Source of the DNA: Minisyncoccota bacterium
GTDB lineage: Bacteria > Patescibacteriota > Minisyncoccia > Minisyncoccales > Minisyncoccaceae
Direction: 5' to 3'
Length of the DNA: 27,143 nt
Assembly: GCA_041673285.1 (NCBI GenBank)
Contig: JBAYXY010000001.1
Span: forward strand, 1 to 27,143
The notes beneath the pieces are model-generated. The model made no database searches. It was not told the DNA's origin and was given only the letters and a program-made list of their open reading frames with translations. Positions 1 to 7,714 of this stretch are shown piece after piece. Position 1 is the first letter of the stretch. Every line of letters starts with the position of its first letter. The position numbers and the translations under genes are program-made.

Positions 1-834
1 CAGTCATTTACACTTATTGAACTTCTAGTCGTCATTGTTATCATTGGCATCCTTTCAGGACTAGTCGTCATTGCTACTTCTTCTTTCATAGAGAAAGCGA
101 ACTTTTCAAAAGCTCAAGCGTTTTCGTCTACGATTCACAAGGAAATGTTGTTTAGTTTGGTGTCGGAGTGGACGTTTGATGATGGTACAAATCAAGCAGT
201 TAATAGAATAGCTACTGCTGATGATGTAAAAGACTCTTGGGGATCTAATCATGGAACAGTTCATGGTAATCCTCAAGTAAAAGGAGGAGATGATTGTATT
301 TTTGGAAGGTGCCTAAGTTTTGATGGGGATGATCATATTGTAATAGATATGTTTGTTAGTGGAACAGAAGCAACGATTTCTTTGTGGGTGAAAAATCCAT
401 CTGGTAGTTATGTTTTAAGGTCTGATGCAAATTGTAGAACTTATGTGCGCAGGAACTCTTTTTCAAAAGGAGACCCTTTAGTTTCTTTAGGATCTGCTTC
501 GTATTCTAAAGATTGGAATCATGCTGTAATTACATGGAAAAAAGAAAATGGCCAGCTTAAAGGAAAGGCTTTTATAAATGGGGTGCCAACACAAAAGGAT
601 TTTAAAGATTTTTCAGATGAGTGTAATGGAACTTATATCACATTAATGTCTTTTACCCGTGGCGGGGAACAGTTTGCTTCAGGAACTATTGATGATGTAA
701 GATATTATAATGCTGTTTTATCTACTGCAGAAATCAAACAAAACTACATTGCAGGACTAGACTTAATGCTAAAAAATGGAAGCTTGTCAAAAAACGAATA
801 TAATCAAAGATTGCAAGCTTTAGCGAACAATTAA
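1..834 (+). CDS. Type IV pilin-like N-terminal methylation domain protein with LamG/concanavalin A-like domain (5' partial)
   Basis: Frame 1 is open from base 1 and reads QS-FTLIELLVVIVIIGILSGLVVIA (class III signal, F+1, E+5, S at -1), running into the tracked ORF at 145. LamG-like motifs: WTFDDG, CLSFDGDDHI, WNHAVITW, FINGV, GTIDDVRYYNAVLS. The true start lies upstream of the window. Confidence 0.85.
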   Translation, partial: QSFTLIELLVVIVIIGILSGLVVIATSSFIEKANFSKAQAFSSTIHKEMLFSLVSEWTFDDGTNQAVNRIATADDVKDSWGSNHGTVHGNPQVKGGDDCIFGRCLSFDGDDHIVIDMFVSGTEATISLWVKNPSGSYVLRSDANCRTYVRRNSFSKGDPLVSLGSASYSKDWNHAVITWKKENGQLKGKAFINGVPTQKDFKDFSDECNGTYITLMSFTRGGEQFASGTIDDVRYYNAVLSTAEIKQNYIAGLDLMLKNGSLSKNEYNQRLQALANN

Positions 835-868
835 TCTCTTGCAAGTATTGTATGGCTTGCACAAAAAA

Positions 869-897
869 TTGACAGACTTTCAAAAATTAATCACAAT
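869..897 (+). promoter_or_regulatory. sigma70-type promoter for the tsaE run (probably leaderless)
   Basis: TTGACA (869-874), 17-nt spacer, CACAAT (892-897), 6 nt, ATG at 904. Confidence 0.65.
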
Positions 898-903
898 GGA
901 ACT

Positions 904-1332
904 ATGGATGTGATTACGAATTCGGAAGAGGAAACAAAGAAGCTTGTTTTAAGCTTGCTTAACATTTACCCTTTTAAAGAGCATGCAACTATTTTTGTGC
1001 TTCAAGGAGAGCTTGGTTCTTCTAAAACAACTTTTGTGAAAGGACTTGAAAACGTTTTAGGAGTTAAAATTAAAAGTCCAACATTTAATATTATTCAAAA
1101 GTATAAGATAGATTTTAGAGGTTTTAAGAACTTGTATCATATTGATTTTTATAGAGTGTCTGATGTTTTGGGATTAGACTTTGATGAAATTGTAAAGAAT
1201 AGGGAGAACTTGGTTTTTATTGAATGGGGAGAGAATGTAAAAGAACACATTCCTAAATATTCAAAATGGATCTATTTTGAATATGTAGATAAGTATAAGA
1301 GAAGGATTTATGAAAAAGATAATCATCATTGA
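904..1332 (+). CDS. tsaE: tRNA t6A biosynthesis ATPase TsaE (YjeE)
   Basis: GELGSSKTTFVKG P-loop-like motif, IKSPTFNIIQKY, LYHIDFYR and FIEWGE match TsaE signatures; 142 aa. Confidence 0.9.
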   Translation: MDVITNSEEETKKLVLSLLNIYPFKEHATIFVLQGELGSSKTTFVKGLENVLGVKIKSPTFNIIQKYKIDFRGFKNLYHIDFYRVSDVLGLDFDEIVKNRENLVFIEWGENVKEHIPKYSKWIYFEYVDKYKRRIYEKDNHH

Positions 1333-2176
1333 TAGCAACTCAGTAATTCATAGAGCGTTTCATGCACTTCCTCCTTTGGAGAATAAGAAAGGAGAAGTTG
1401 CAAATGCTGTTTTTGGGTTTTTGAAGTTTTTGTTTAAAGCAATAAGAGAATTAGAACCCGATTATATTGCGGCGTGTTTTGATGTTTCGGAAAAGACTTT
1501 TAGAAAAGAAATGTTTAAGGATTACAAAGCAAAAAGGGAAAAAGCGCCTAATGAGCTTTATTCTCAAATACCGATGGTAAAAGAAGTTTTAAGAAAGTTT
1601 AGAATCCCTATTTTTGAAAAAGAGGGGTTTGAGGGGGATGATTTGATTGGAACAATTGCAAAAAAAGAAAATGGAAATTTGGAGAAAATAATATTGTCGG
1701 GAGATTTAGATAATCTTCAATTAGTGGATAAGAATGTGAAGCTGGTTTTTTTAACAGGGAAGCTTGTTTTTTTTGATGAAAAGAAAATAGGGGAAAGGTA
1801 TGAGATTTTGCCAAAGCAGATTGTAGATTTAAAAGCTCTAATGGGAGATAATGCAGACAATATTCCCGGAGTTTTAGGAATTGGTATTAAAACTGCAACA
1901 ACACTTTTAAAAAAATATGGGACATTAGAAAATATTTATAGAAATATTGATTTAATAGAGGGAAAGGTAAAAGAGAAATTAATTCAAGGAAAAGAAATGG
2001 CTTTTTTAAGTAAAGAGCTTTCTCAAATAAAAACAGATGTGTGTTTTGATTTTGATTTAGAGAAGTGCAAATGGGGAGATTATGATAAAGATGAGGTGCT
2101 TCAATTTTTTGAAGAGTTTGGTTTTAAAAGCTTAGTTTCAAAGATTCCTGAAAAAAGTAATTTGAGATTATTTTAA
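1310..2176 (+). CDS. Stand-alone 5'-3' exonuclease/flap endonuclease (PolA N-terminal domain only)
   Basis: IIDSNSVIHRAFHA, CFD, RKEMFKDYKAKR, FEGDDLIGT, SGDLD and GDNADNIPGVLGIGIKTA (H3TH) are present. The protein ends at 288 aa with no polymerase domain. Confidence 0.9.
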   Translation: MKKIIIIDSNSVIHRAFHALPPLENKKGEVANAVFGFLKFLFKAIRELEPDYIAACFDVSEKTFRKEMFKDYKAKREKAPNELYSQIPMVKEVLRKFRIPIFEKEGFEGDDLIGTIAKKENGNLEKIILSGDLDNLQLVDKNVKLVFLTGKLVFFDEKKIGERYEILPKQIVDLKALMGDNADNIPGVLGIGIKTATTLLKKYGTLENIYRNIDLIEGKVKEKLIQGKEMAFLSKELSQIKTDVCFDFDLEKCKWGDYDKDEVLQFFEEFGFKSLVSKIPEKSNLRLF

Positions 2177-2179
2177 TTT

Positions 2180-3013
2180 ATGCCTGAACTACCAGAAGTA
2201 CAAACAATAGTAGATGAGCTTAATCTAAAAGTAAAAGGAAAAACAATTCTTAAAAGTTTGCCTGCTATTAAAAATATTAAGAATAAGAAAATATTAAATA
2301 TTAGAAGACGAGCAAAGTATATTATTCTTGAATTGTCAGACAATTATATTTTATTGATTCATTTAAAAATGACAGGGCATCTTCTTTTAGGAAAGTGGGA
2401 AATGAGAGATAATATTTTCTATCCTATTTCAGAAGGTCCTTTAAAAGAGGATCGGTTTAATCAATATGTGCGTACAGTTTTCTATTTAGACAATGATTTT
2501 GATTTGGGTTTTTCTGATTTAAGAAAGTTTGGACAAATTGAGCTTTTTAAAAAAGAAGAGTTTGAGAAATTGGAAAAGATAAACAAGCTGGGGGTGGAAC
2601 CGTTTTCAAAAGATTTTACTTTTAAATTTTTTAAAGGTATTATTAAAAATACAAAAACAAACATTAAAAAATTATTAATGGATCAAGAGAAAATAGCAGG
2701 AATAGGAAATATTTATGCATCAGAAATATTATTTTGTGCAAGAGTTTCTCCTTTAAGGAATGCAAATAGTTTAAGTGAAAATGAGATGAAAAGAATATAT
2801 GAGGTAATAAAACTTGTTTTAAAAAAAGCCATTGATTTAAAGGGAAGTAGTGCTTTTGATTATAGGAGGACAGATGGGATTAAGGGTTTTTATCAAGAGC
2901 ATTCATTTGTTTATGGAAGGCGTGGAGAAGAATGTTTGAAGTGTAAGGGAAAAGTAGAATACGTTAAAATTGGACAAAGAGGAACATACTTTTGTCCGAA
3001 ATGTCAAAAATGA
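2180..3013 (+). CDS. mutM: Formamidopyrimidine-DNA glycosylase Fpg/MutM
   Basis: N-terminal PELPEV, HLKMTG, DLRKFG, LLMDQEKIAGIGNIYASEILF (H2TH), C-terminal zinc finger CLKC...FCPKCQ. Confidence 0.95.
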   Translation: MPELPEVQTIVDELNLKVKGKTILKSLPAIKNIKNKKILNIRRRAKYIILELSDNYILLIHLKMTGHLLLGKWEMRDNIFYPISEGPLKEDRFNQYVRTVFYLDNDFDLGFSDLRKFGQIELFKKEEFEKLEKINKLGVEPFSKDFTFKFFKGIIKNTKTNIKKLLMDQEKIAGIGNIYASEILFCARVSPLRNANSLSENEMKRIYEVIKLVLKKAIDLKGSSAFDYRRTDGIKGFYQEHSFVYGRRGEECLKCKGKVEYVKIGQRGTYFCPKCQK

Positions 3014-3915
3014 TAATATTAATTTACGGAAAAGATACATTTAGGTCAAAGGAGAGATTAAACGAACTAAGGTCAGCTTACAAGCTTAAAAATCAAAGCG
3101 GAATAAATGAAAGATTTTTAAATGGAAAGAATTTAAGTTTTGATGAGCTCAAAGATGAGGTTTTAGGACTTTCTTTTTTTAATGAAAAGAAGTTGATTAT
3201 AGTGGAAAATGTTTTTTCAAATAAATTATTAAAGGAAGAAATTAAAAAAAGAGGAAAGGACTTTTTAGACTCAGAAAACATTATTATATTTTATGAAGAT
3301 AAAAAAGTTTTGAAAGGAGACATTTTGTATGCTTTTATTAGAAAGAAAGCAAAGATAGAAGAATACGAATTTTTAAAAGGAGAAGAGCTTAAAAAATGGA
3401 TTTTAAAAAAGGTTTTGAAAAATGGAGGGAGTATAACAAAGTCTGCACTTAATTTATTATATGAATATATTGGTTCTGATTTATGGAGACAGAAAAATGA
3501 AATTCAAAAATTGATTGCTTATAAAAATGAGATAGAGGAAGAAGATGTGAAGTTTTTGGTGAATGTTAATTCTGAATTAAATATTTTTAACACGGTGGAT
3601 GCGATATCTAAAAATGATAAAAAAAATGCCATAAAATTAGCGAAAAAACATTTAGAAAAAGGAGAGTCTATTTTTGGACTTTTAGCTTTAATAGGAACTC
3701 AATTTAAGAATATGTTGATTGTTAAAACTTTAGATGATTATAGAAAGGCGAGTTTACATCCTTTTGTTTTAAGAAAATCCTATTATCAATCACAAAAGTT
3801 TTCAGTTGAGGATTTAAAAAGAATACATAATAAGATATTAGAAATAGATTCTAAAATAAAGACAGGAGAGCTTGATGAAAAAATAGCCATGGAAACGCTT
3901 ATACTTGAAATATGA
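3010..3915 (+). CDS. holA: DNA polymerase III delta subunit
   Basis: MIILIYGKD start (ATG at 3010 overlaps the mutM stop as ATGA), LSFFNEKKLIIVEN, EIQKLIAY, NIFNTVDAI, LHPFVL, IDSKIKTG. Confidence 0.85.
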   Translation: MIILIYGKDTFRSKERLNELRSAYKLKNQSGINERFLNGKNLSFDELKDEVLGLSFFNEKKLIIVENVFSNKLLKEEIKKRGKDFLDSENIIIFYEDKKVLKGDILYAFIRKKAKIEEYEFLKGEELKKWILKKVLKNGGSITKSALNLLYEYIGSDLWRQKNEIQKLIAYKNEIEEEDVKFLVNVNSELNIFNTVDAISKNDKKNAIKLAKKHLEKGESIFGLLALIGTQFKNMLIVKTLDDYRKASLHPFVLRKSYYQSQKFSVEDLKRIHNKILEIDSKIKTGELDEKIAMETLILEI

Positions 3916-4856
3916 ATATTATTGATAAATTAAAAAAAGCAAATTTAAAAGGGAGAGGAGGAGCATGTTTTCCTACATATTTAAAATGGGAAAGTGTTTT
4001 AAATGCAAAAGCTTTTAAAAAGTATATTATTTGTAATGCAGCTGAGGCGGAGCTTGATTTTAAGAAAGATAAATATATATTAGAGCATTTTTTAGAGGAT
4101 GTTTTAAATGGAATAAAAATAGCATTAAAAACTATTCCTAAGTCTTCCGCTTTTATTTATCTTAATAAAAATTATTACCCAATTTTTAAAGAGAGGATAA
4201 AAGAAGAGAAGATTACTTTAATTGAAGGGGATAATAAATATATAGGAGGGGAGGAAACGGCTTTAATAAATTTTATAGAAGAAAAAATAGCGATACCTAA
4301 AAAGAAGCCTCCTTATGTTTCAGAAAAAGGATTATTTAATATGCCAACACTTGTGAATAATGTAGAAACTTTTTACTATACTTCTAAAATAGAAAAAGGG
4401 GAGTATCAGAATGAAAGATTTTATATGGTTTTAGGAAAGGGAATTGATGATCATATTTTAGAGCTTAAAAGTAATACAACGATAAGAGAAATTTTGAAAG
4501 AAGTTAAAATTCCTTTTCCTTATTATATTCAAGCAGGAGGTGTTTTAGGGGAGATATTAGAAGAAAAGGATTTTGATAGAGTTTTAGAATGTACAGGTCT
4601 GATGAGAGTGATTGCTTACAGTGAAGACCCTTATTTAGTAATGGAGGAATGGGCAGAGTTTTTAACAAATGGAAATTGTGATAAATGCACTCCTTGTAGA
4701 GAGGGAACACATCGAATTTTAGAAATGGTAAGGAAAAGAGAAATTGAAAAGCTCGAAGAATTATTTTTAGCACTTGAGAAAACAAGCTTTTGTGCTTTGG
4801 GAAAAGGCATTCCGATTCCTTTTAGAAGTTTAATTAAAAAAATATGTTTGAAATAG
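3912..4856 (+). CDS. NuoF/HydB/HoxF-like FMN- and [4Fe-4S]-binding NADH-oxidoreductase subunit (minimal, divergent)
   Basis: LKGRGGACFPT, YIICNAAEAE, YIGGEETAL, PTLVNNVETF, and cluster cysteines CDKCTPCREG...CALG. Confidence 0.85.
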   Translation: MNIIDKLKKANLKGRGGACFPTYLKWESVLNAKAFKKYIICNAAEAELDFKKDKYILEHFLEDVLNGIKIALKTIPKSSAFIYLNKNYYPIFKERIKEEKITLIEGDNKYIGGEETALINFIEEKIAIPKKKPPYVSEKGLFNMPTLVNNVETFYYTSKIEKGEYQNERFYMVLGKGIDDHILELKSNTTIREILKEVKIPFPYYIQAGGVLGEILEEKDFDRVLECTGLMRVIAYSEDPYLVMEEWAEFLTNGNCDKCTPCREGTHRILEMVRKREIEKLEELFLALEKTSFCALGKGIPIPFRSLIKKICLK

Positions 4857-6103
4857 AAATAGATGGAAAAAAAATATTGGTTGATCCTAAAAAAACTATT
4901 TTAGAAATAGCAATTGAGAATGATATAAAGATTCCTTATCTTTGTTATGACCCTGATATTCCCCCGAAAGAGTCTTGCAGGCTTTGTGTGGTTGATATTA
5001 AAGGAGAGCTTTTTCCTGCCTGTGCAACTTATCCTAAAGAGGGAATGGTTATAAAAACAGAAACAGAAGAGATTTTAAAAGTAAGGAAAACTAATTTAAA
5101 ATTATTGTTTTCTCAGCATATTGAAAAATGCAATACGTGTATTTGGAATAATAAATGCAAGATGCTTAACTATGCTAGAGAGTGGGGGGTTGCTATTAAT
5201 GAATGGGAGGATAGGAAGATAGGGCACAAGGAGTATAATTTTAAAAATACCATTATTTATGATTCTTCAAAATGTATTAACTGTTTTAATTGTGTTGATG
5301 TGTGCGAAGTTGGGTTTTTAGAGATTAAAAACAAAGGAAGTTTTCATGAAATTGTTCCTTCTTCCAAAAAAGAATGTATTTATTGTGGGCAATGTTTAGT
5401 ACATTGTCCTTCTGGGGCTTTTTCTTCTTTTGATTCGTCTTTGAAAATAGAGGAAGAGATTCAAAAAGGTAAAAATGTTGTTTTTCAAGTTTCGCCTTTT
5501 GTTTGTTTAGGTATGGGTGTTTCAAATGAGCATTTAATTGGAGCAATTAGAAAATTAGGAGTGAAGAAAGTTTTTGATTTGAGTTTGGGAGAGAATTTGT
5601 TTAAAGAGAGGGAAGCAGAAGAACTTGAATTAAGGATTCAAAAAAAAGAAAAGCTTCCCATGCTTTCTTGTTTTTGTCCTGCGTTTGTTCAGTTTGTAAA
5701 AGCTTATAGAAAGGATCTTATTTCTAATTTATCTAAAGTTTCCTATCCTCATATTCTTTTAAAGGAGGTGATAGAGGAAAAAGAAAAGGATGCTGTTGTT
5801 GTTTCTGTTTTACCTTGCACAGCGGTTAAGTATAAAAGCAATGACTATATTTTAACAACGCACGAACTTTCAAGAATGTTAAAAAAGAATAAAATTGATT
5901 TTAATGATGTTTCCTCTTTTGATGAGATTTTGGAAGCTCAAGAAAGCGAAAAAGTGAAAACAATTTATGGAATTCTGAATGCTAAAAAAGCTCTTGAAAG
6001 TTTAGATGCTAATTTTTTGAGAGTGGAGGCTTGTCCAAAAGGTTGTGCATTTGGAGGAGGTCAACTTGTTCCAACAAAAAAACGCCTATTTGGCGCTTTC
6101 TAA
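4844..6103 (+). CDS. [FeFe]-hydrogenase-like (HydA/NuoG N-terminus) multi-Fe-S protein with degenerate H-cluster domain
   Basis: 2Fe-2S (IPYLC...SCRLC...AC), His-ligated 4Fe-4S (HIEKCNTCIWNNKC), two 4Fe-4S (CINCFNCVDVC, CIYCGQCLVHCP), then H-domain-like motifs SCFCPAF, LPCTAVK and EACPKGCAFGGGQ. Confidence 0.8.
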   Translation: MFEIEIDGKKILVDPKKTILEIAIENDIKIPYLCYDPDIPPKESCRLCVVDIKGELFPACATYPKEGMVIKTETEEILKVRKTNLKLLFSQHIEKCNTCIWNNKCKMLNYAREWGVAINEWEDRKIGHKEYNFKNTIIYDSSKCINCFNCVDVCEVGFLEIKNKGSFHEIVPSSKKECIYCGQCLVHCPSGAFSSFDSSLKIEEEIQKGKNVVFQVSPFVCLGMGVSNEHLIGAIRKLGVKKVFDLSLGENLFKEREAEELELRIQKKEKLPMLSCFCPAFVQFVKAYRKDLISNLSKVSYPHILLKEVIEEKEKDAVVVSVLPCTAVKYKSNDYILTTHELSRMLKKNKIDFNDVSSFDEILEAQESEKVKTIYGILNAKKALESLDANFLRVEACPKGCAFGGGQLVPTKKRLFGAF

Positions 6104-6358
6104 TGAGTTTACTAATTTTGTAATGCGTGCTTTTTTACGAGAGGCGGTATTGTCTTTAATAACATTTGTTTTGGCTGCTTTATCAATGGCTTTGTATGCT
6201 TTTGGTAATAGTTTTAATGCCTCCTCTTTATTCTTTAAAGTAACCAAAGATTTAATCTCTTTTAAGATTTTTCTCATTTCTTTTTTCTTTAAAAAGTTTG
6301 CGTATGTTTTTTTCTTGTCTTGCACAAGACGTTTTTTTGCTGATTTAAGTATTGGCAT
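6086..6358 (-). CDS. rpsT: 30S ribosomal protein S20
   Basis: MPILKSAKKR...AYKAIDKAAKTNVIKDNTASRKKARI; 90 aa, highly basic. Confidence 0.95.
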   Translation of the reverse strand: MPILKSAKKRLVQDKKKTYANFLKKKEMRKILKEIKSLVTLKNKEEALKLLPKAYKAIDKAAKTNVIKDNTASRKKARITKLVNSLESAK

Positions 6359-6364
6359 GGGTTT

Positions 6365-6393
6365 AATATATACTAAAGTTTGAAAATATGCAA
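6365..6393 (-). promoter_or_regulatory. sigma70-type promoter for rpsT (probably leaderless)
   Basis: Minus strand: TTGCAT (6393-6388), 17 nt, TATATT (6370-6365), 6 nt, ATG at 6358. Confidence 0.6.
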
Positions 6394-6396
6394 GGG

Positions 6397-7608
6397 TTAG
6401 AAGTCAACTTGGTATTCGCTGATAACTCCAGGGCCTCCGTTTTGGCCATTGGAGGCGGGTTTGTTAGAGTCTCCGCCTTGCCCTCCTATTCCGCCAGATA
6501 CGTCTACGGTTCCTGTGCCAGATTTTGTATTATATACTAATAGTATGTAACCGCCGCCACCACCGCCACCACCCCCATCGGCGTAGGTTACGCCATATTT
6601 TTCTTCGAACCATGTTGTTCCGTTGCCTCCATTCCCTCCACGTGCACTTATAGTTCCGTTATTAACAAGGTTTTTAACAAAAATGTGTATTATACCACCA
6701 CCGCCGCCACCTCCGCCATTTAAGCCATAGCTACCTGCATAGTCTATGGCTCCTCCACCTCCTCCCGCACCGCCAATTGTGGCTAGTGTAAGGCTAGGCA
6801 ATAGAGCTAATTGTGATTGTGAGGGAGGATCTATATGTTCTCTTAAAATTATATTTGTATTATTGCCAGTGCCCCCTGCTCCTCCCTCACCACCGACATA
6901 TCCACCTTTTCCTCCATATCCAAATTCTCCATTGTCGGCTTCATTGCCACCGTCATTACATCTATGAATACATCCACCAGAGGCACTACATCCAAAGGTA
7001 CATCGTCCTCCTTTGGCAGACCCTCCTACTCTATTAGTTGCAAGGGCAGTGCCCCCGTATGAATAAGATCTATTTTTTCCACTTGCATTGTCTCCATTAT
7101 TTCCATCTCTACTTATTTTTCCCCCTGAATTAATGGTAAGTGTCCCAGACACAAATACTCTCCAGCCGTTGGGGTTTAGGGTAGCTCCTGAGTTGATAGT
7201 AAGATTTCTGTATTCCATATCTTTGTTTAAAGTTGTATTTCCTGTAATGACAACATCTCCATCAATACCAGAGCCAAAGTATTTAGTTATTGCAGGAGAC
7301 CCTCCTGCATTATTATCAACGTATTCTTTTGTGGCCAGATGTTCATTTTCTGTAGGATTGCTTGCTGATATTGTTCCTGCAACAATACTATCTCCTGTAA
7401 GGTTAAGGTAGTAGCCTTGATTCTGAAAATCGTGTAATTCTGTGATGAGTAATCTTCCTGCTTTTCCTTGAGGCTCTATGCCTGTGTTCAAAGGAATGCT
7501 GTATGAGCTTGGCATTTCTACTGGCTCTGTCCAACTGTATACAATGAAAGCTAAGGCAATGAAGAGCATTGCTGACAAGGAAAAGATAAGTGTTTTTTGT
7601 TTGTTCAT
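6397..7608 (-). CDS. Membrane-anchored or secreted glycine-rich surface protein
   Basis: N-terminal hydrophobic helix followed by WTEP, an HLATKEYVD motif, beta-rich repeats (LTINSGATL / LTINSGGKI) and multiple poly-Gly runs. Confidence 0.75.
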   Translation of the reverse strand: MNKQKTLIFSLSAMLFIALAFIVYSWTEPVEMPSSYSIPLNTGIEPQGKAGRLLITELHDFQNQGYYLNLTGDSIVAGTISASNPTENEHLATKEYVDNNAGGSPAITKYFGSGIDGDVVITGNTTLNKDMEYRNLTINSGATLNPNGWRVFVSGTLTINSGGKISRDGNNGDNASGKNRSYSYGGTALATNRVGGSAKGGRCTFGCSASGGCIHRCNDGGNEADNGEFGYGGKGGYVGGEGGAGGTGNNTNIILREHIDPPSQSQLALLPSLTLATIGGAGGGGGAIDYAGSYGLNGGGGGGGGIIHIFVKNLVNNGTISARGGNGGNGTTWFEEKYGVTYADGGGGGGGGGYILLVYNTKSGTGTVDVSGGIGGQGGDSNKPASNGQNGGPGVISEYQVDF

Positions 7609-7640
7609 ATGGCTATTATTTTAATTAATTATTTTCAGTT

Positions 7641-7668
7641 ATTATAGCATGGTAGGAGAAATTGTAAA
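7641..7668 (-). promoter_or_regulatory. Promoter for the Gly-rich protein gene
   Basis: Minus strand: TTTACA (7668-7663), 16 nt, extended -10 TGc-TATAAT (7646-7641). Confidence 0.55.
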
Positions 7669-7680
7669 AGGTAAATAATA

Positions 7681-7708
7681 TTGAAAAACTTTAATTAAAT
7701 GGTATTAT
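7681..7708 (+). promoter_or_regulatory. Promoter for ruvA-murE (probably leaderless)
   Basis: TTGAAA (7681-7686), 16 nt, extended -10 TGg-TATTAT (7703-7708), 6 nt, ATG at 7715. Confidence 0.55.
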
Positions 7709-7714
7709 AATAAT

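What the first reader, a model, noticed from the sequence alone, without database searches (positions are those of the whole stretch)
4844..6103. Hydrogenase-like protein that probably cannot be a hydrogenase (Nar1-like degeneration)
All accessory clusters and all four [4Fe-4S]H cysteines appear retained, but the di-iron site residues are lost. P1 TSCCP becomes SCFCP (proton-transfer Cys to Phe, 5669-5680). P2 MPCxxKxxE becomes LPCTAVKYK (5810-5836; Met, Lys and Glu all changed). P3 ExMxCxxGC becomes RVEACPKGC (6020-6046). Only 71 residues separate the P2 and P3 cysteines versus about 143 in CpI, so the GAGxIFGxxGGVMEAA segment is gone. No hydEFG maturase genes are in the window. Eukaryotic Nar1/IOP1 shows a similar pattern (Fe-S kept, catalysis lost). 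Inference: an electron-transfer, redox-sensing or Fe-S carrier protein.
Basis: partly seen in the sequence, partly recalled or inferred. Interest (0 to 1): 0.75.

Follow-up and report, generated by a model that had tools for sequence, protein, structure and literature searches.

The report
Decayed hydrogenase kept as iron-sulfur wire
In one tiny-genome (CPR) bacterium from anaerobic digesters, the hydrogen-making enzyme gene that its close relatives keep intact has lost the pocket for the hydrogen-splitting metal centre. It survives as a shortened iron-sulfur protein next to a small flavoprotein, which catches an enzyme in the middle of being lost or repurposed.

Summary
Window 4844-6103(+) encodes a 419-aa HydA-type protein. 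It keeps every Cys/His ligand of five Fe-S sites, including the four [4Fe-4S]H cysteines. It has lost the di-iron pocket: TSCCP>SCFCP, MPCxxKxxE>LPCTAVKYK, ExM>VE, APS>SPF and SPQ>YPH. The GAGVIFG..GGVxE segment and the C-terminal small-subunit-like domain are deleted.

New here: it is the syntenic ortholog of a canonical 554-567-aa group A hydrogenase. That hydrogenase is present in 7 of 8 same-genus genomes and 34 of 36 same-family genomes.

- Its H-domain is the fastest-evolving part of the locus; in relatives it is the slowest.
- The frame is still open, which neutral simulation gives in 0.05% of runs or fewer.
- The neighbouring hymD-like membrane gene is gone.
- The sister species has deleted hydA entirely but keeps the short NuoF-like gene.
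- An independent lineage shows an intermediate 522-aa decay form.

Absence of hydEFG does not discriminate, because intact relatives lack these genes too. A second "hydrogenase" in the bin is a Bacteroidales contaminant.

Most likely this is a non-catalytic hydrogenase relic retained as the Fe-S wire of a NuoF-like diaphorase. The alternative is a late stage of gene loss. It resembles Nar1 only by analogy. The scan has met comparable relic HydA subunits on other DNA.

The parts
3912..4856 (+). Short NuoF/HymB-like flavoprotein (314 aa): FMN/NAD(H) domain plus an N3-type [4Fe-4S] site. It has no NuoE-like partner and none of the extra ferredoxin domains of bifurcating HydB. It is translationally coupled to holA (ATGA overlap) and to the HydA-like gene (13-nt overlap).
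   Evidence: Pfam Complex1_51K E 4.6e-32 and NADH_4Fe-4S E 1.9e-14. Alignment to HydB/NuoF structures. The genus-wide alignment shows NAAEGELD is family-wide, and that GGAGFP>GGACFP plus two small deletions are shared only with G006. No NuoE-like domain anywhere in the genome.
4844..6103 (+). HydA-like relic, 419 aa: the whole gene given in the finding.
   Evidence: AlphaFold2 model with mean pLDDT 86.5 and pTM 0.85. Foldseek TM 0.87 (query-normalised) to T. kivui HydA 8a6t and 0.85 to CpI.
4847..5065 (+). N-terminal plant-type [2Fe-2S] domain (C34, C45, C48, C60).
   Evidence: Pfam Fer2_4 E 1.7e-13, residues 2-74. The Cys are invariant in alignment A2.
5084..5191 (+). His-ligated [4Fe-4S] site of NuoG/CpI type (H92, C96, C99, C105).
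   Evidence: Pfam NADH-G_4Fe-4S_3 E 7e-08, residues 81-116. Invariant columns.
5252..5422 (+). 2x[4Fe-4S] ferredoxin domain (C144/147/150/154 and C178/181/184/188).
   Evidence: Pfam Fer4_7/Fer4_9, residues 137-193. Invariant columns.
5471..6058 (+). Shrunken H-domain (residues 210-405). It keeps the four [4Fe-4S]H cysteines (C278, C325, C397, C401) but not the di-iron pocket.
   Evidence: PF02906 scores 119-121 bits here, against about 282-310 bits for the syntenic HydA copies of same-family genomes. It is 47-50% identical to same-genus orthologs, which are 77-98% identical to each other.
5666..5680 (+). P1 remnant SCFCP (canonical TSCCP). The proton-transfer Cys (CpI C299) is Phe; the cluster ligand (C300) is kept.
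5810..5836 (+). P2 remnant LPCTAVKYK (canonical MPCxxKxxE). Met, the CN-binding Lys and Glu are replaced; Cys is kept.
5912..5953 (+). Scar of the roughly 50-60-residue in-frame deletion that removed the GAGVIFG..GGV(M/A)E..R segment. This is the only long low-confidence stretch of the model (residues 357-370).
   Evidence: Alignment gaps in A1 and to 7p5h/8a6t. pLDDT below 50 at 357-370.
6020..6046 (+). P3 remnant RVEACPKGC (canonical ExMxCxxGC). Met (CpI M497) is Glu; both Cys are kept, followed by GGGQ at 6053-6064. The protein ends 12 residues later, so the small-subunit-like C-terminal domain is gone.
6086..6358 (-). rpsT (ribosomal protein S20), convergent, overlapping the 3' end of the HydA-like gene by 18 nt. 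In intact relatives a 162-164-aa hymD-like membrane gene lies between hydA and rpsT. It is absent here.

Best explanation
The gene is the direct, same-position descendant of a group A (CpI/HymC-like, M3-architecture) [FeFe]-hydrogenase. In this CPR family that hydrogenase forms a three-gene module: short NuoF-like flavoprotein, HydA, and a HymD-like membrane protein.

What happened in the lineage leading to this species:
- The hydrogen-catalysing di-iron site was abandoned. Nearly every residue that contacts the [2Fe] subcluster was replaced, two of them by bulky Phe.
- The helix-loop that closes the pocket and the C-terminal small-subunit-like domain were removed by in-frame deletions.
- hymD was lost.

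What remains is a compact protein predicted to fold like HydA, with five Fe-S sites: one [2Fe-2S], one His-ligated [4Fe-4S], two ferredoxin-type [4Fe-4S], and the cubane site of the former H-cluster.

I infer that it still works as the Fe-S 'wire' subunit of a two-subunit diaphorase with the translationally coupled NuoF-like protein, analogous to HoxF-HoxU or NuoF-NuoG. It would move electrons between NAD(P)H at the flavin and a low-potential partner, most plausibly the ferredoxin reduced by the genome's 2-oxoacid:ferredoxin oxidoreductase, without making H2.

Shown: orthology, synteny, loss of pocket residues, retention of ligands, domain-specific rate acceleration, and maintenance of the open frame.

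Inferred: actual cluster content, flavin binding, partner identity, and direction of electron flow.
For: Orthology and synteny:
- tsaE-exo-fpg-holA-nuoFshort-hydA-(hymD)-rpsT-ruvA-murE is conserved in relatives carrying 554-563-aa HydA with canonical TSCCPAW / MPCxSKKYE / EVMxCPGGCxGGGGQP.
- 7 of 8 same-genus and 34 of 36 same-family genomes have the intact form.

Loss of catalysis:
- The motif changes and deletions.
- A graded TIGR02512 score: 421-430 bits for intact orthologs, 295 for the 522-aa intermediate, 122 for the window, against a cut-off of 406.
- hymD is absent from the genome, and so are HydE, HydF and HydG.

Domain-specific change of constraint:
- Terminal branch lengths are 1.07 substitutions/site for the H-domain and 0.33 for the N-terminal Fe-S part. 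Intact lineages have H shorter than N.
- Within the locus, the H-domain is the least conserved segment in the window (52% to G007) but the most conserved segment between intact species (67%).
- The N-terminal part (64%) and the NuoF-like protein (67%) diverge like housekeeping neighbours (59-80%).

Still under selection:
- In neutral simulations run to the observed divergence, the 213 aligned H-domain codons stay stop-free in 0.05% of runs or fewer.
- All deletions are in frame.
- All 20 cluster ligands are retained. The four H-site Cys are also retained in the independently decayed 522-aa form.

Fold: model pLDDT 86.5, TM 0.87 to HydA.

Context:
- OFOR alpha/beta subunits are present.
- There is no NiFe hydrogenase and no NuoE.
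- The only other HydA in the bin is on a 40%-GC contig and is 90% identical to a Rikenellaceae gene, so it is a contaminant.
- The organism is widespread in anaerobic reactors, and the gene is identical on every one of the 10 other contigs compared, from independent samples.
Against: - The sister species G006 has deleted hydA completely while keeping an intact NuoF-like gene. So the relic is dispensable in at least one close lineage, and the NuoF-like protein must have a HydA-independent role or partner.
- The NuoF-like protein itself is accelerated and carries a Gly>Cys change in the FMN-phosphate loop.
- The two sequence variants found in metagenomes differ mostly by non-synonymous changes clustered in residues 363-411, as expected if the C-terminal remnant is weakly constrained.
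- Transcription is not demonstrated. Only one 208-nt metatranscriptome contig matches.
- No biochemical data exist. Cluster occupancy of the former H-site is inferred from cysteines only, and I could not measure Cys geometry in the model.
Confidence: 0.6

Rival explanations
1. Late-stage gene loss. The protein no longer has a selected function. The open frame and cysteines are leftovers of a recently inactivated hydrogenase that will eventually be deleted, as already happened in the sister species.
For: - G006, sister to the window species (UFBoot 98), has fpg-holA-nuoFshort-rpsT with no hydA at all.
- Hydrogenase decay has occurred at least twice independently in the genus: the window lineage, and the L008/L055 lineage that is sister to G008.
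- The H-domain branch is very long.
- Metagenome variants carry clustered non-synonymous changes in residues 363-411.
- Transcript evidence is only marginal.
Against: - A neutrally drifting 213-codon stretch in a 31%-GC genome would almost never stay stop-free at 51% amino-acid divergence: 0.05% of simulations or fewer.
- At least four separate deletions are all in frame.
- All 20 Fe-S ligands are intact.
- The N-terminal half diverges no faster than housekeeping neighbours.
- Translational coupling to the upstream gene is preserved.
- CPR genomes are streamlined and delete useless DNA quickly, as G006 shows.
Confidence: 0.22
2. Repurposed sensor or Fe-S cluster carrier (a true functional analogue of Nar1/CIAO3). 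The former H-site binds a labile cluster that is sensed or handed on, rather than serving as the end of an electron wire.
For: - The four H-site cysteines are retained in two independent decay lineages.
- An extra Cys is created next to the ligand (SCFCP, C276), and there is a further new Cys at 221.
- Nar1 shows that an H-domain can serve as a cluster carrier (PMC12621388, abstract seen).
Against: - There is no output or partner domain (no PAS, kinase or phosphatase) and no regulatory gene nearby.
- The full CpI-type electron-transfer N-terminus and the coupling to a NuoF-like flavoprotein point to electron transfer.
- The protein is not related to Nar1 beyond the shared superfamily.
- The sister species does without it.
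Confidence: 0.08
3. Still a hydrogenase, using a remodelled pocket or an unconventional cofactor made by an unknown maturase-independent route.
For: - Whole CPR families and many archaea encode canonical HydA without HydEFG, so an alternative maturation route is suspected (PMC11216029).
- The proton-pathway Glu/Arg positions (CpI E279, E282, R286) and GGGQ are still present.
Against: - Relatives that also lack maturases nevertheless keep every canonical pocket residue under strong constraint. The pocket therefore matters for their function, and it has been dismantled here.
- CpI C299, S232, Q325, M353, K358 and M497 equivalents are all changed.
- The F417/G418-bearing segment and the C-terminal domain are deleted.
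- From established mutagenesis of CpI and CrHydA1 (my knowledge, not tested here), single changes at K358, M353, M497 or C299 already cripple activity or cofactor insertion.
Confidence: 0.03

Closest known systems
Group A [FeFe]-hydrogenase catalytic subunit of M3 architecture (C. pasteurianum CpI; HydA/HymC/HndD of NAD(P)H-linked multimeric enzymes; PDB 3c8y/4xdc, 7p5h, 8a6t, 7q4v)
   Same: - Same domain order: [2Fe-2S], His-[4Fe-4S], 2x[4Fe-4S], H-domain.
- 24-30% identity and TM 0.85-0.87 to the solved structures.
- Direct syntenic ortholog of canonical CPR members, with up to 63% identity over the first 358-363 residues.
   Different: - Di-iron pocket residues are replaced.
- About 60 residues of the H-domain and the whole C-terminal small-subunit-like domain are deleted.
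- It scores 122 bits against a 406-bit cut-off on TIGR02512.
- The hymD neighbour is lost.
Eukaryotic Nar1 / CIAO3 / IOP1 / NARFL (hydrogenase-like CIA factor)
   Same: An H-domain protein that keeps cluster-binding cysteines but has no [2Fe] subcluster and no hydrogenase activity. It shows the same general pattern of Fe-S kept and catalysis lost.
   Different: - Nar1 has a full-length H-domain, a simple N-terminal 4-Cys site (no [2Fe-2S], His-cluster or 2x[4Fe-4S] domains) and a C-terminal tail that binds the CIA targeting complex.
- Nar1 is an ancient, essential eukaryotic family.
- The window protein is a recent derivative nested within CPR HydA orthologs and is paired with a NuoF-like protein.
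HoxU/HoxF diaphorase module and NuoG(N-terminus)/NuoF of complex I
   Same: - The N-terminal 200 residues match HoxU (NF005745, E 6e-35, residues 4-198) and NuoG.
- The partner is a NuoF-type flavoprotein with an N3-type cluster.
- This is the best model for how the pair would work.
   Different: - No hydrogenase or quinone module is attached, and no NuoE/HoxE-like subunit exists in the genome.
- It carries a vestigial H-domain with a probable extra cubane.
- The NuoF-like subunit is minimal (314 aa) with a non-canonical NAAEAELD motif.
HydA-derived non-catalytic subunit of NiFe-HydABCSL (Acetomicrobium mobile, PDB 7t2r chain A); also relic HydA subunits noted earlier in this scan (e1-1294477 in another Patescibacteria genome, e1-4938814 in Bacteroidales)
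   Same: A HydA-family subunit that has lost H-cluster function but is retained as an electron-transfer subunit beside a NuoF-like protein. 7t2r_A matches residues 4-200.
   Different: In those systems the relic serves another catalytic module, a NiFe hydrogenase encoded alongside. Here no NiFe hydrogenase large or small subunit is found in the genome, and no other catalytic partner is adjacent.
Stand-alone minimal H-domain proteins of CPR (e.g. G037, 263 aa, next to a HymD-like gene)
   Same: Small H-domain with four Cys kept and degenerate P1/P3 motifs (TNPCP, ILNCEGGCINGPG) in the same order of bacteria.
   Different: That protein lacks all N-terminal Fe-S domains, keeps the P2 Lys/Glu (GPCLLKKVE), keeps HymD next door, and has no NuoF-like partner adjacent. 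It is a different, older lineage: its best NCBIfam hit is group B1-like.

Membership tests
[FeFe]-hydrogenase, group A (catalytic HydA) | P1 motif TSCCP, with the proton-transfer Cys (CpI C299) next to the ligand Cys (C300) | tested here: not met
   The motif is SCFCP. C299 is replaced by Phe; C300 is kept.
[FeFe]-hydrogenase, group A (catalytic HydA) | P2 motif MPCxxKxxE (CpI M353, C355, K358, E361) | tested here: not met
   The motif is LPCTAVKYK. Only Cys is kept.
[FeFe]-hydrogenase, group A (catalytic HydA) | P3 motif ExMxCxxGCxxGGGQP (CpI M497, C499, C503) | tested here: not met
   The motif is RVEACPKGCAFGGGQL. Both Cys and GGGQ are kept; Met is replaced by Glu.
[FeFe]-hydrogenase, group A (catalytic HydA) | Complete H-domain, including the GAGxIFGxxGGVMEAA segment and the small-subunit-like C-terminus | tested here: not met
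   The segment is deleted and PF02256 is absent. There are 71 rather than 143 residues between the P2 and P3 Cys.
[FeFe]-hydrogenase, group A (catalytic HydA) | Score above the curated HMM cut-off (TIGR02512, 405.95 bits) | tested here: not met
   121.7 bits. Orthologs P0002 and P0007 score 429.6 and 420.9; the intermediate P0003 scores 295.2.
[FeFe]-hydrogenase, group A (catalytic HydA) | Common descent with catalytic members (orthology) | tested here: met
   Same genomic slot and gene order as intact HydA in relatives. In the tree it falls inside the genus-level HydA clade.
[FeFe]-hydrogenase, group A (catalytic HydA) | H2 evolution or uptake activity with an assembled H-cluster | not testable with these tools
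   Needs expression, maturation or [2Fe]adt loading, plus activity and FTIR/EPR assays.
Nar1 / CIAO3 family | Eukaryotic clade membership. Architecture is an N-terminal 4-Cys site plus a full-length H-domain, with a C-terminal tail that binds the CIA targeting complex. | tested here: not met
   The protein is bacterial, with an M3-type N-terminus (Fer2_4, NADH-G_4Fe-4S_3, 2x Fer4) and a truncated H-domain that ends 12 residues after GGGQ. It is nested in CPR HydA. No direct alignment or tree with Nar1 sequences was made.
Nar1 / CIAO3 family | H-domain cysteines retained while [2Fe]-pocket residues are lost | tested here: met
   C278, C325, C397 and C401 are kept; pocket residues are replaced. 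This is a resemblance in pattern, not evidence of membership.
HoxFU / NuoFG-type diaphorase pair (functional analogy) | NuoF-type flavoprotein with an N3 cluster, encoded next to a NuoG-N-terminus-type Fe-S subunit | tested here: met
   Complex1_51K plus NADH_4Fe-4S at 3912-4856, overlapping the HydA-like gene by 13 nt. The N-terminus matches HoxU and NuoG models.
HoxFU / NuoFG-type diaphorase pair (functional analogy) | Canonical FMN/NADH-binding residues in the flavoprotein | tested here: inconclusive
   GGEETA, NNVET and the Gly-rich loop are present. However, NADEGEPG reads NAAEAELD (similar throughout the genus), and GGAGFP reads GGACFP (shared only with G006).
HoxFU / NuoFG-type diaphorase pair (functional analogy) | NAD(P)H:acceptor oxidoreductase activity of the complex | not testable with these tools
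   Needs co-expression and enzyme assays.

The most novel reading that the evidence does not exclude
The relic is informative about a larger puzzle. Whole CPR lineages keep canonical, strongly constrained [FeFe]-hydrogenases with no HydE/F/G in the genome. In a 301-genome class sample the HydA-positive and HydG-positive genomes do not overlap at all.

In the window's family, HydA is always accompanied by a HymD-like membrane protein resembling ECF-transporter S components. That gene disappears exactly where the di-iron pocket decays: in the window, in L008/L055 and in G006.

The most novel reading not excluded is that HymD is part of a maturase-independent route that supplies the [2Fe] cofactor or a precursor, for example by uptake from a host or neighbour. 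On that reading, this species is a natural 'knock-out' in which loss of that route left apo-HydA to be trimmed into a plain Fe-S protein.
Probability: 0.08. Interest if true: 0.85.

Novelty: new variant of a known kind. Interest (0 to 1): 0.45.

Why it matters
Hydrogenase-like proteins that kept Fe-S clusters but lost catalysis are known from eukaryotes (Nar1) and from a few bacterial complexes. In those cases the transition itself is ancient and cannot be observed.

Here the transition is caught within a single genus, in one conserved genomic slot, at four stages:
- intact enzyme (about 560 aa, with HymD);
- a 522-aa intermediate;
- the 419-aa relic of this window;
- complete deletion.

This gives an ordered natural series of what is lost. 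The proton-transfer Cys, the P2 Met/Lys, the pocket-closing segment and hymD are already gone at the 522-aa stage. The P3 Met and the C-terminal domain go later. All Fe-S ligands and the NuoF-like partner are kept.

The finding is also a practical warning for metabolic annotation. This gene would be called an [FeFe] hydrogenase by domain-based pipelines, and the bin even contains a contaminant hydrogenase. H2 production would therefore be wrongly assigned to a widespread digester and wastewater CPR organism.

Finally, the family-wide absence of maturases next to canonical HydA extends to CPR bacteria a puzzle already raised for archaea and some protists.

Tried and rejected
- **Second hydrogenase in the genome.** PF02906 found a canonical HydA on contig C44. 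I rejected it as belonging to this organism. The contig has 40.1% GC against 32.5% for the genome, and the protein is 90% identical to a Rikenellaceae gene.
- **Relic serving a NiFe hydrogenase.** This was a lead from earlier scan note e1-1294477. No NiFe large subunit (PF00374) or small subunit (PF01058) is in the genome.
- **Bifurcating HydABC.** There is no NuoE/HydC-like domain in the genome, and the NuoF-like protein lacks the extra ferredoxin domains.
- **Absence of maturases as evidence.** It does not discriminate, because relatives with canonical HydA lack them too.
- **Population genetics.** The gene is 100% identical at the DNA level in the 10 other contigs compared. The only two variants (13 and 7 differences) are too few for a meaningful pN/pS and may include assembly noise.
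- **Expression.** Only one RNA run holds any of the gene. A single 208-nt contig (5177-5384) was laid, and DNA carry-over cannot be excluded.
- **Shared origin of the two decayed forms.** The window and L008/L055 both read LPMLS at P1 and both delete the GAGVIFG region. However, the HydA and NuoF trees place them with different intact sisters, and the deletion borders differ. I therefore treat them as independent, while noting that HydA tree support is weak (42-56%) and long-branch effects are possible.
- **Literature.** Searches for CPR hydrogenases without maturases, or for HymD function, found nothing specific.
- **Cys-Cys geometry.** I could not check it in the model because coordinates are not exposed to scripts.


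Full report
**1. What is in the sequence**

Window 4844-6103(+) is an intact 419-codon ORF. It starts with ATG 13 nt before the stop of the upstream gene, and the convergent rpsT gene overlaps its 3' end by 18 nt.

Pfam finds, in order:
- a plant-type [2Fe-2S] domain (residues 2-74);
- the His-ligated [4Fe-4S] motif of NuoG/CpI (81-116);
- a 2x[4Fe-4S] ferredoxin domain (137-193);
- the [FeFe]-hydrogenase H-domain, PF02906 (E 7e-35). All 245 model positions are compressed into residues 210-405.

The C-terminal small-subunit-like domain (PF02256), present in all full-length relatives, is absent.

**2.

Alignments to solved HydA structures (T. maritima 7p5h, T. kivui 8a6t, A. woodii 7q4v, CpI) confirm each motif statement:
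- TSCCP is SCFCP (5666-5680). CpI C299 becomes Phe and the ligand C300 is kept.
- MPCxxKxxE is LPCTAVKYK (5810-5836). M353>L, K358>V, E361>K.
- ExMxCxxGC is RVEACPKGC (6020-6046). M497>E.
- 71 residues lie between the P2 and P3 cysteines, against 143 in CpI. The GAGVIFG..GGV(M/A)E segment is missing.

- APA/S>SPF;
- SPQ>YPH;
- a 9-residue deletion after GMG;
- loss of about 70 C-terminal residues.

All 20 ligands of the five Fe-S sites fall in invariant columns of a 60-sequence alignment.

It is not an artefact. The identical gene occurs on 10 other contigs fetched from independent bioreactor, digester, landfill, wastewater and soil metagenomes.

**3. Whose gene it is**

The genome is a 607-kb bin of 95 contigs with 32.5% GC. 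It is 92.8% complete. The nearest named proteins are from 'Candidatus Pacebacteria' and other Patescibacteria.

The closest homologs are 46-57% identical (BLASTP). All but one of them (the 522-aa P0003, section 5) are full-length at 554-564 aa and carry canonical TSCCPAW, MPCxSKKYE and EVMxCPGGCxGGGGQP.

These homologs sit in the same genomic slot. The order is tsaE, 5'-3' exonuclease, fpg, holA, a short NuoF-like gene (317-324 aa), hydA, a 162-164-aa membrane-protein gene, rpsT (opposite strand), ruvA, murE. The window has the same order, but hydA is shortened and the membrane-protein gene is missing.

The window gene is thus the positional ortholog of a canonical hydrogenase, not an old paralog.
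- 34 of 36 same-family genomes and 7 of 8 same-genus genomes have an H-domain scoring about 280-310 bits on PF02906. The window scores 119.
- On NCBIfam's group A model (cut-off 405.95 bits) intact orthologs score 421-430 and the window scores 122.

**4. A false lead removed**

The bin holds a second, canonical HydA on contig C44. That contig has 40.1% GC, an outlier. Its protein is 90% identical to a Rikenellaceae gene and 80-87% identical to many Bacteroidales genes. It is mis-binned. The CPR organism has only the degenerate copy.

**5. A series of decay stages**

A metagenomic relative (L008/L055, 522 aa) shows an intermediate state:
- P1 is SSSCP and P2 is TTCTSEKYE.
- About 26 residues of the GAGVIFG region are deleted.
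- P3 and the C-terminal domain are intact.
- The membrane-protein gene is already gone.
- It scores 295 bits on TIGR02512.

One same-genus genome, G006 (97% complete), has no hydA at all. Its locus reads fpg, holA, NuoF-like (314 aa, intact), rpsT, ruvA, murE.

A tree of the NuoF-like protein puts the window and G006 as sisters (UFBoot 98). They also share two small deletions and a Gly>Cys change in the GGAGFP loop. The pair is sister to the intact G001/P0002 clade. L055 is sister to the intact G008 (UFBoot 94).

Hydrogenase decay therefore happened at least twice in the genus. In the window's own clade it went as far as deletion in the sister species.

**6. Selection**

Among intact same-genus orthologs the H-domain is more conserved (77-98% identity) than the N-terminal Fe-S part (68-94%). 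For the window the order is reversed: 47-50% against 63-72%.

On a fixed topology, the window's terminal branch is 1.07 substitutions/site for the H-domain and 0.33 for the N-terminal part. Intact terminals have the H branch shorter than the N branch, for example 0.09 against 0.16.

Across the locus:
- The window's H-domain is the least conserved segment (52% to G007), while fpg, holA, rpsT, ruvA and murE are 59-80% identical.
- Between two intact species the H-domain is the most conserved segment (67% against 53-65%).
- The NuoF-like protein (67%) and the HydA N-terminal part (64%) diverge like the housekeeping neighbours.

The H-domain stump is nevertheless not drifting freely. I started from the G001 coding sequence and applied AT-biased random substitutions until the observed 51% amino-acid divergence was reached. 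The 213 aligned codons stayed free of stops in 0.05% of 2000 simulations or fewer. All deletions are in frame. The four H-site cysteines survive in both independent decay lineages.

This is a rough model, because part of the divergence accrued under constraint. Even so, it argues against a dead pseudogene.

**7. Structure**

With the 60-sequence alignment, AlphaFold2 gives a confident model (mean pLDDT 86.5, pTM 0.85). The only long low-confidence stretch is at residues 357-370, the deletion scar.

Foldseek matches T. kivui and T. maritima HydA and CpI, including apo-CpI 4xdd, with query-normalised TM 0.84-0.87. The protein should fold as a compact HydA.

I could not inspect coordinates, so the geometry of the four cysteines is untested.

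**8. Maturases and the neighbouring membrane protein**

HydE, HydF and HydG are not found in the genome. HydG and HydF are also not found in any of 24 same-family genomes, although 34 of 36 family genomes searched encode a canonical HydA.

In an even sample of 301 genomes of the class, 8 have a bona fide HydG and 29 others have a strong HydA. The two sets do not overlap.

So the missing maturases say nothing specific about this gene. They extend to CPR bacteria the puzzle described for archaea, Giardia and Entamoeba (PMC11216029).

The 162-aa neighbour is a HymD-like protein.
- It has a weak ECF-transporter S-component signature (Pfam E 0.18).
- Its nearest ESM-Atlas clusters are named '[Fe] hydrogenase HymD subunit', followed by RibU/ThiW-like S components.
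- It is found in 34 of 36 family genomes, the same number as have HydA, and directly beside hydA in every listed match. It is not found in the window genome or in G006.
- It is also absent from the L008/L055 locus.

Its loss therefore tracks loss of the catalytic pocket, not loss of the NuoF-like gene.

**9. How it most likely works**

The upstream 314-aa protein is a minimal NuoF/HymB-like flavoprotein:
- It has the Complex1_51K domain and the N3-type CxxCxxC...C cluster site.
- GGEETA and NNVET are present.
- NADEGEPG is replaced by NAAEAELD. The related form NAAEGELD is found in most of the genus.

No NuoE-like protein, NiFe hydrogenase or L-lactate/malate dehydrogenase-type domain (Ldh_1_C) was detected. 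The alpha and beta subunits of a 2-oxoacid:ferredoxin oxidoreductase are present on a contig of typical GC.

The N-terminal 200 residues of the relic match HoxU and NuoG.

The simplest model is a HoxFU/NuoFG-like two-subunit diaphorase. NAD(P)H would exchange electrons at the flavin, through the N3-type cluster, with the chain of clusters in the relic. That chain would in turn exchange with ferredoxin at the distal clusters, as in CpI.

In relatives this chain ends at the H-cluster and makes H2. Here it would link ferredoxin and NAD(P)(H) without H2.

This model is inferred, not shown. G006 keeps the NuoF-like gene alone, so the flavoprotein must also be able to act without HydA. The relic is evidently dispensable in that lineage.

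I therefore give 0.6 to 'non-catalytic relic still used as an Fe-S wire', about 0.2 to 'late stage of loss', and about 0.1 to sensor or carrier roles. A few per cent remain for residual hydrogenase activity.

**10. Comparison with what is known**

By descent the protein belongs to group A [FeFe]-hydrogenases. It fails every catalytic-site criterion tested (see the membership table).

It resembles Nar1 only in pattern. Architecture, taxon and phylogenetic position differ.

Functionally it is closest to HoxU/NuoG-type wire subunits and to the HydA-derived non-catalytic subunit of NiFe-HydABCSL (7t2r_A). Unlike the latter, it has no replacement catalyst.

The scan has reported comparable relic HydA subunits on other DNA: e1-1294477 in another Patescibacteria genome and e1-4938814 in Bacteroidales. 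I used the first as a lead and the test was negative here.

I found no paper describing this CPR decay series.

**11. Verdict**

It is a new variant of a known kind, a hydrogenase-derived Fe-S protein.

It is interesting mainly because intact, intermediate, relic and deleted states coexist in one genus at one locus. It also exposes a likely over-annotation of H2 metabolism in a widespread CPR organism. Interest is 0.45.

Noticed in passing
relatives G001-G036 (family f1) and a 301-genome class sample; not in the window: Canonical, strongly conserved HydA occurs in 34 of 36 same-family CPR genomes. HydG and HydF were found in none of the 24 family genomes searched. In a 301-genome class sample, the 8 HydG-positive genomes and the 29 other HydA-positive genomes do not overlap. 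Two things are unexplained: how these hydrogenases are matured, and what HydG does in HydA-less genomes.
   Followed up: partly
L021:11694-12182, L022:11667-12161 (the slot between hydA and rpsT, empty in the window at about 6103): A HymD-like membrane protein of 162-164 aa resembling ECF-transporter S components sits directly after hydA in intact loci. It is found in 34 of 36 family genomes, the same number as have HydA. It is missing wherever the catalytic pocket has decayed or hydA is deleted: the window, L008/L055 and G006. Its function is unknown.
   Followed up: partly
L139 (G037:C13) 1113-1904(-) and 1867-2553(-): Another family of the same order has a stand-alone 263-aa H-domain-only protein (TNPCP, GPCLLKKVE, ILNCEGGCINGPG). 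It lies immediately downstream of a HymD-like gene, with no N-terminal Fe-S domains.
   Followed up: partly
window 6397-7608 (-): A 403-aa Gly-rich protein with an N-terminal hydrophobic segment and no Pfam match lies in a 41%-GC stretch between rpsT and ruvA. Relatives (L021, L054, L055) have rpsT directly followed by ruvA, so this is a species-specific insertion.
   Followed up: no
G000 contig C44 (L001), and other short contigs of about 40% GC (C71, C78-C80, C83, C86, C93): C44 carries a Bacteroidales (Rikenellaceae-like, 90% identity) HydA and a membrane sensor gene. It is mis-binned. Several other short contigs are GC outliers and may be contaminants too.
   Followed up: partly
window 3912-4856 (+): The short NuoF-like protein shares with the hydA-less sister species G006 a Gly>Cys change in the FMN-phosphate loop (GGAGFP>GGACFP) and two small deletions. 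It also has a longer branch than in species with intact HydA. The partner may be changing function along with the relic.
   Followed up: partly
window 5931-6076 (residues 363-411 of the relic): The only two sequence variants found in public assemblies (L056, L057) concentrate their differences in this C-terminal stretch: 12 of 13 and 7 of 7 differences, mostly non-synonymous. Residue 378 changes in both. This could reflect weak constraint, strain variation or assembly noise.
   Followed up: no
window 5177-5384: A 208-nt contig of a biogas-fermenter metatranscriptome matches this part of the gene exactly, at depth 2.5. Nothing else in 800-9600 is covered convincingly. This is a weak hint of transcription only.
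   Followed up: partly
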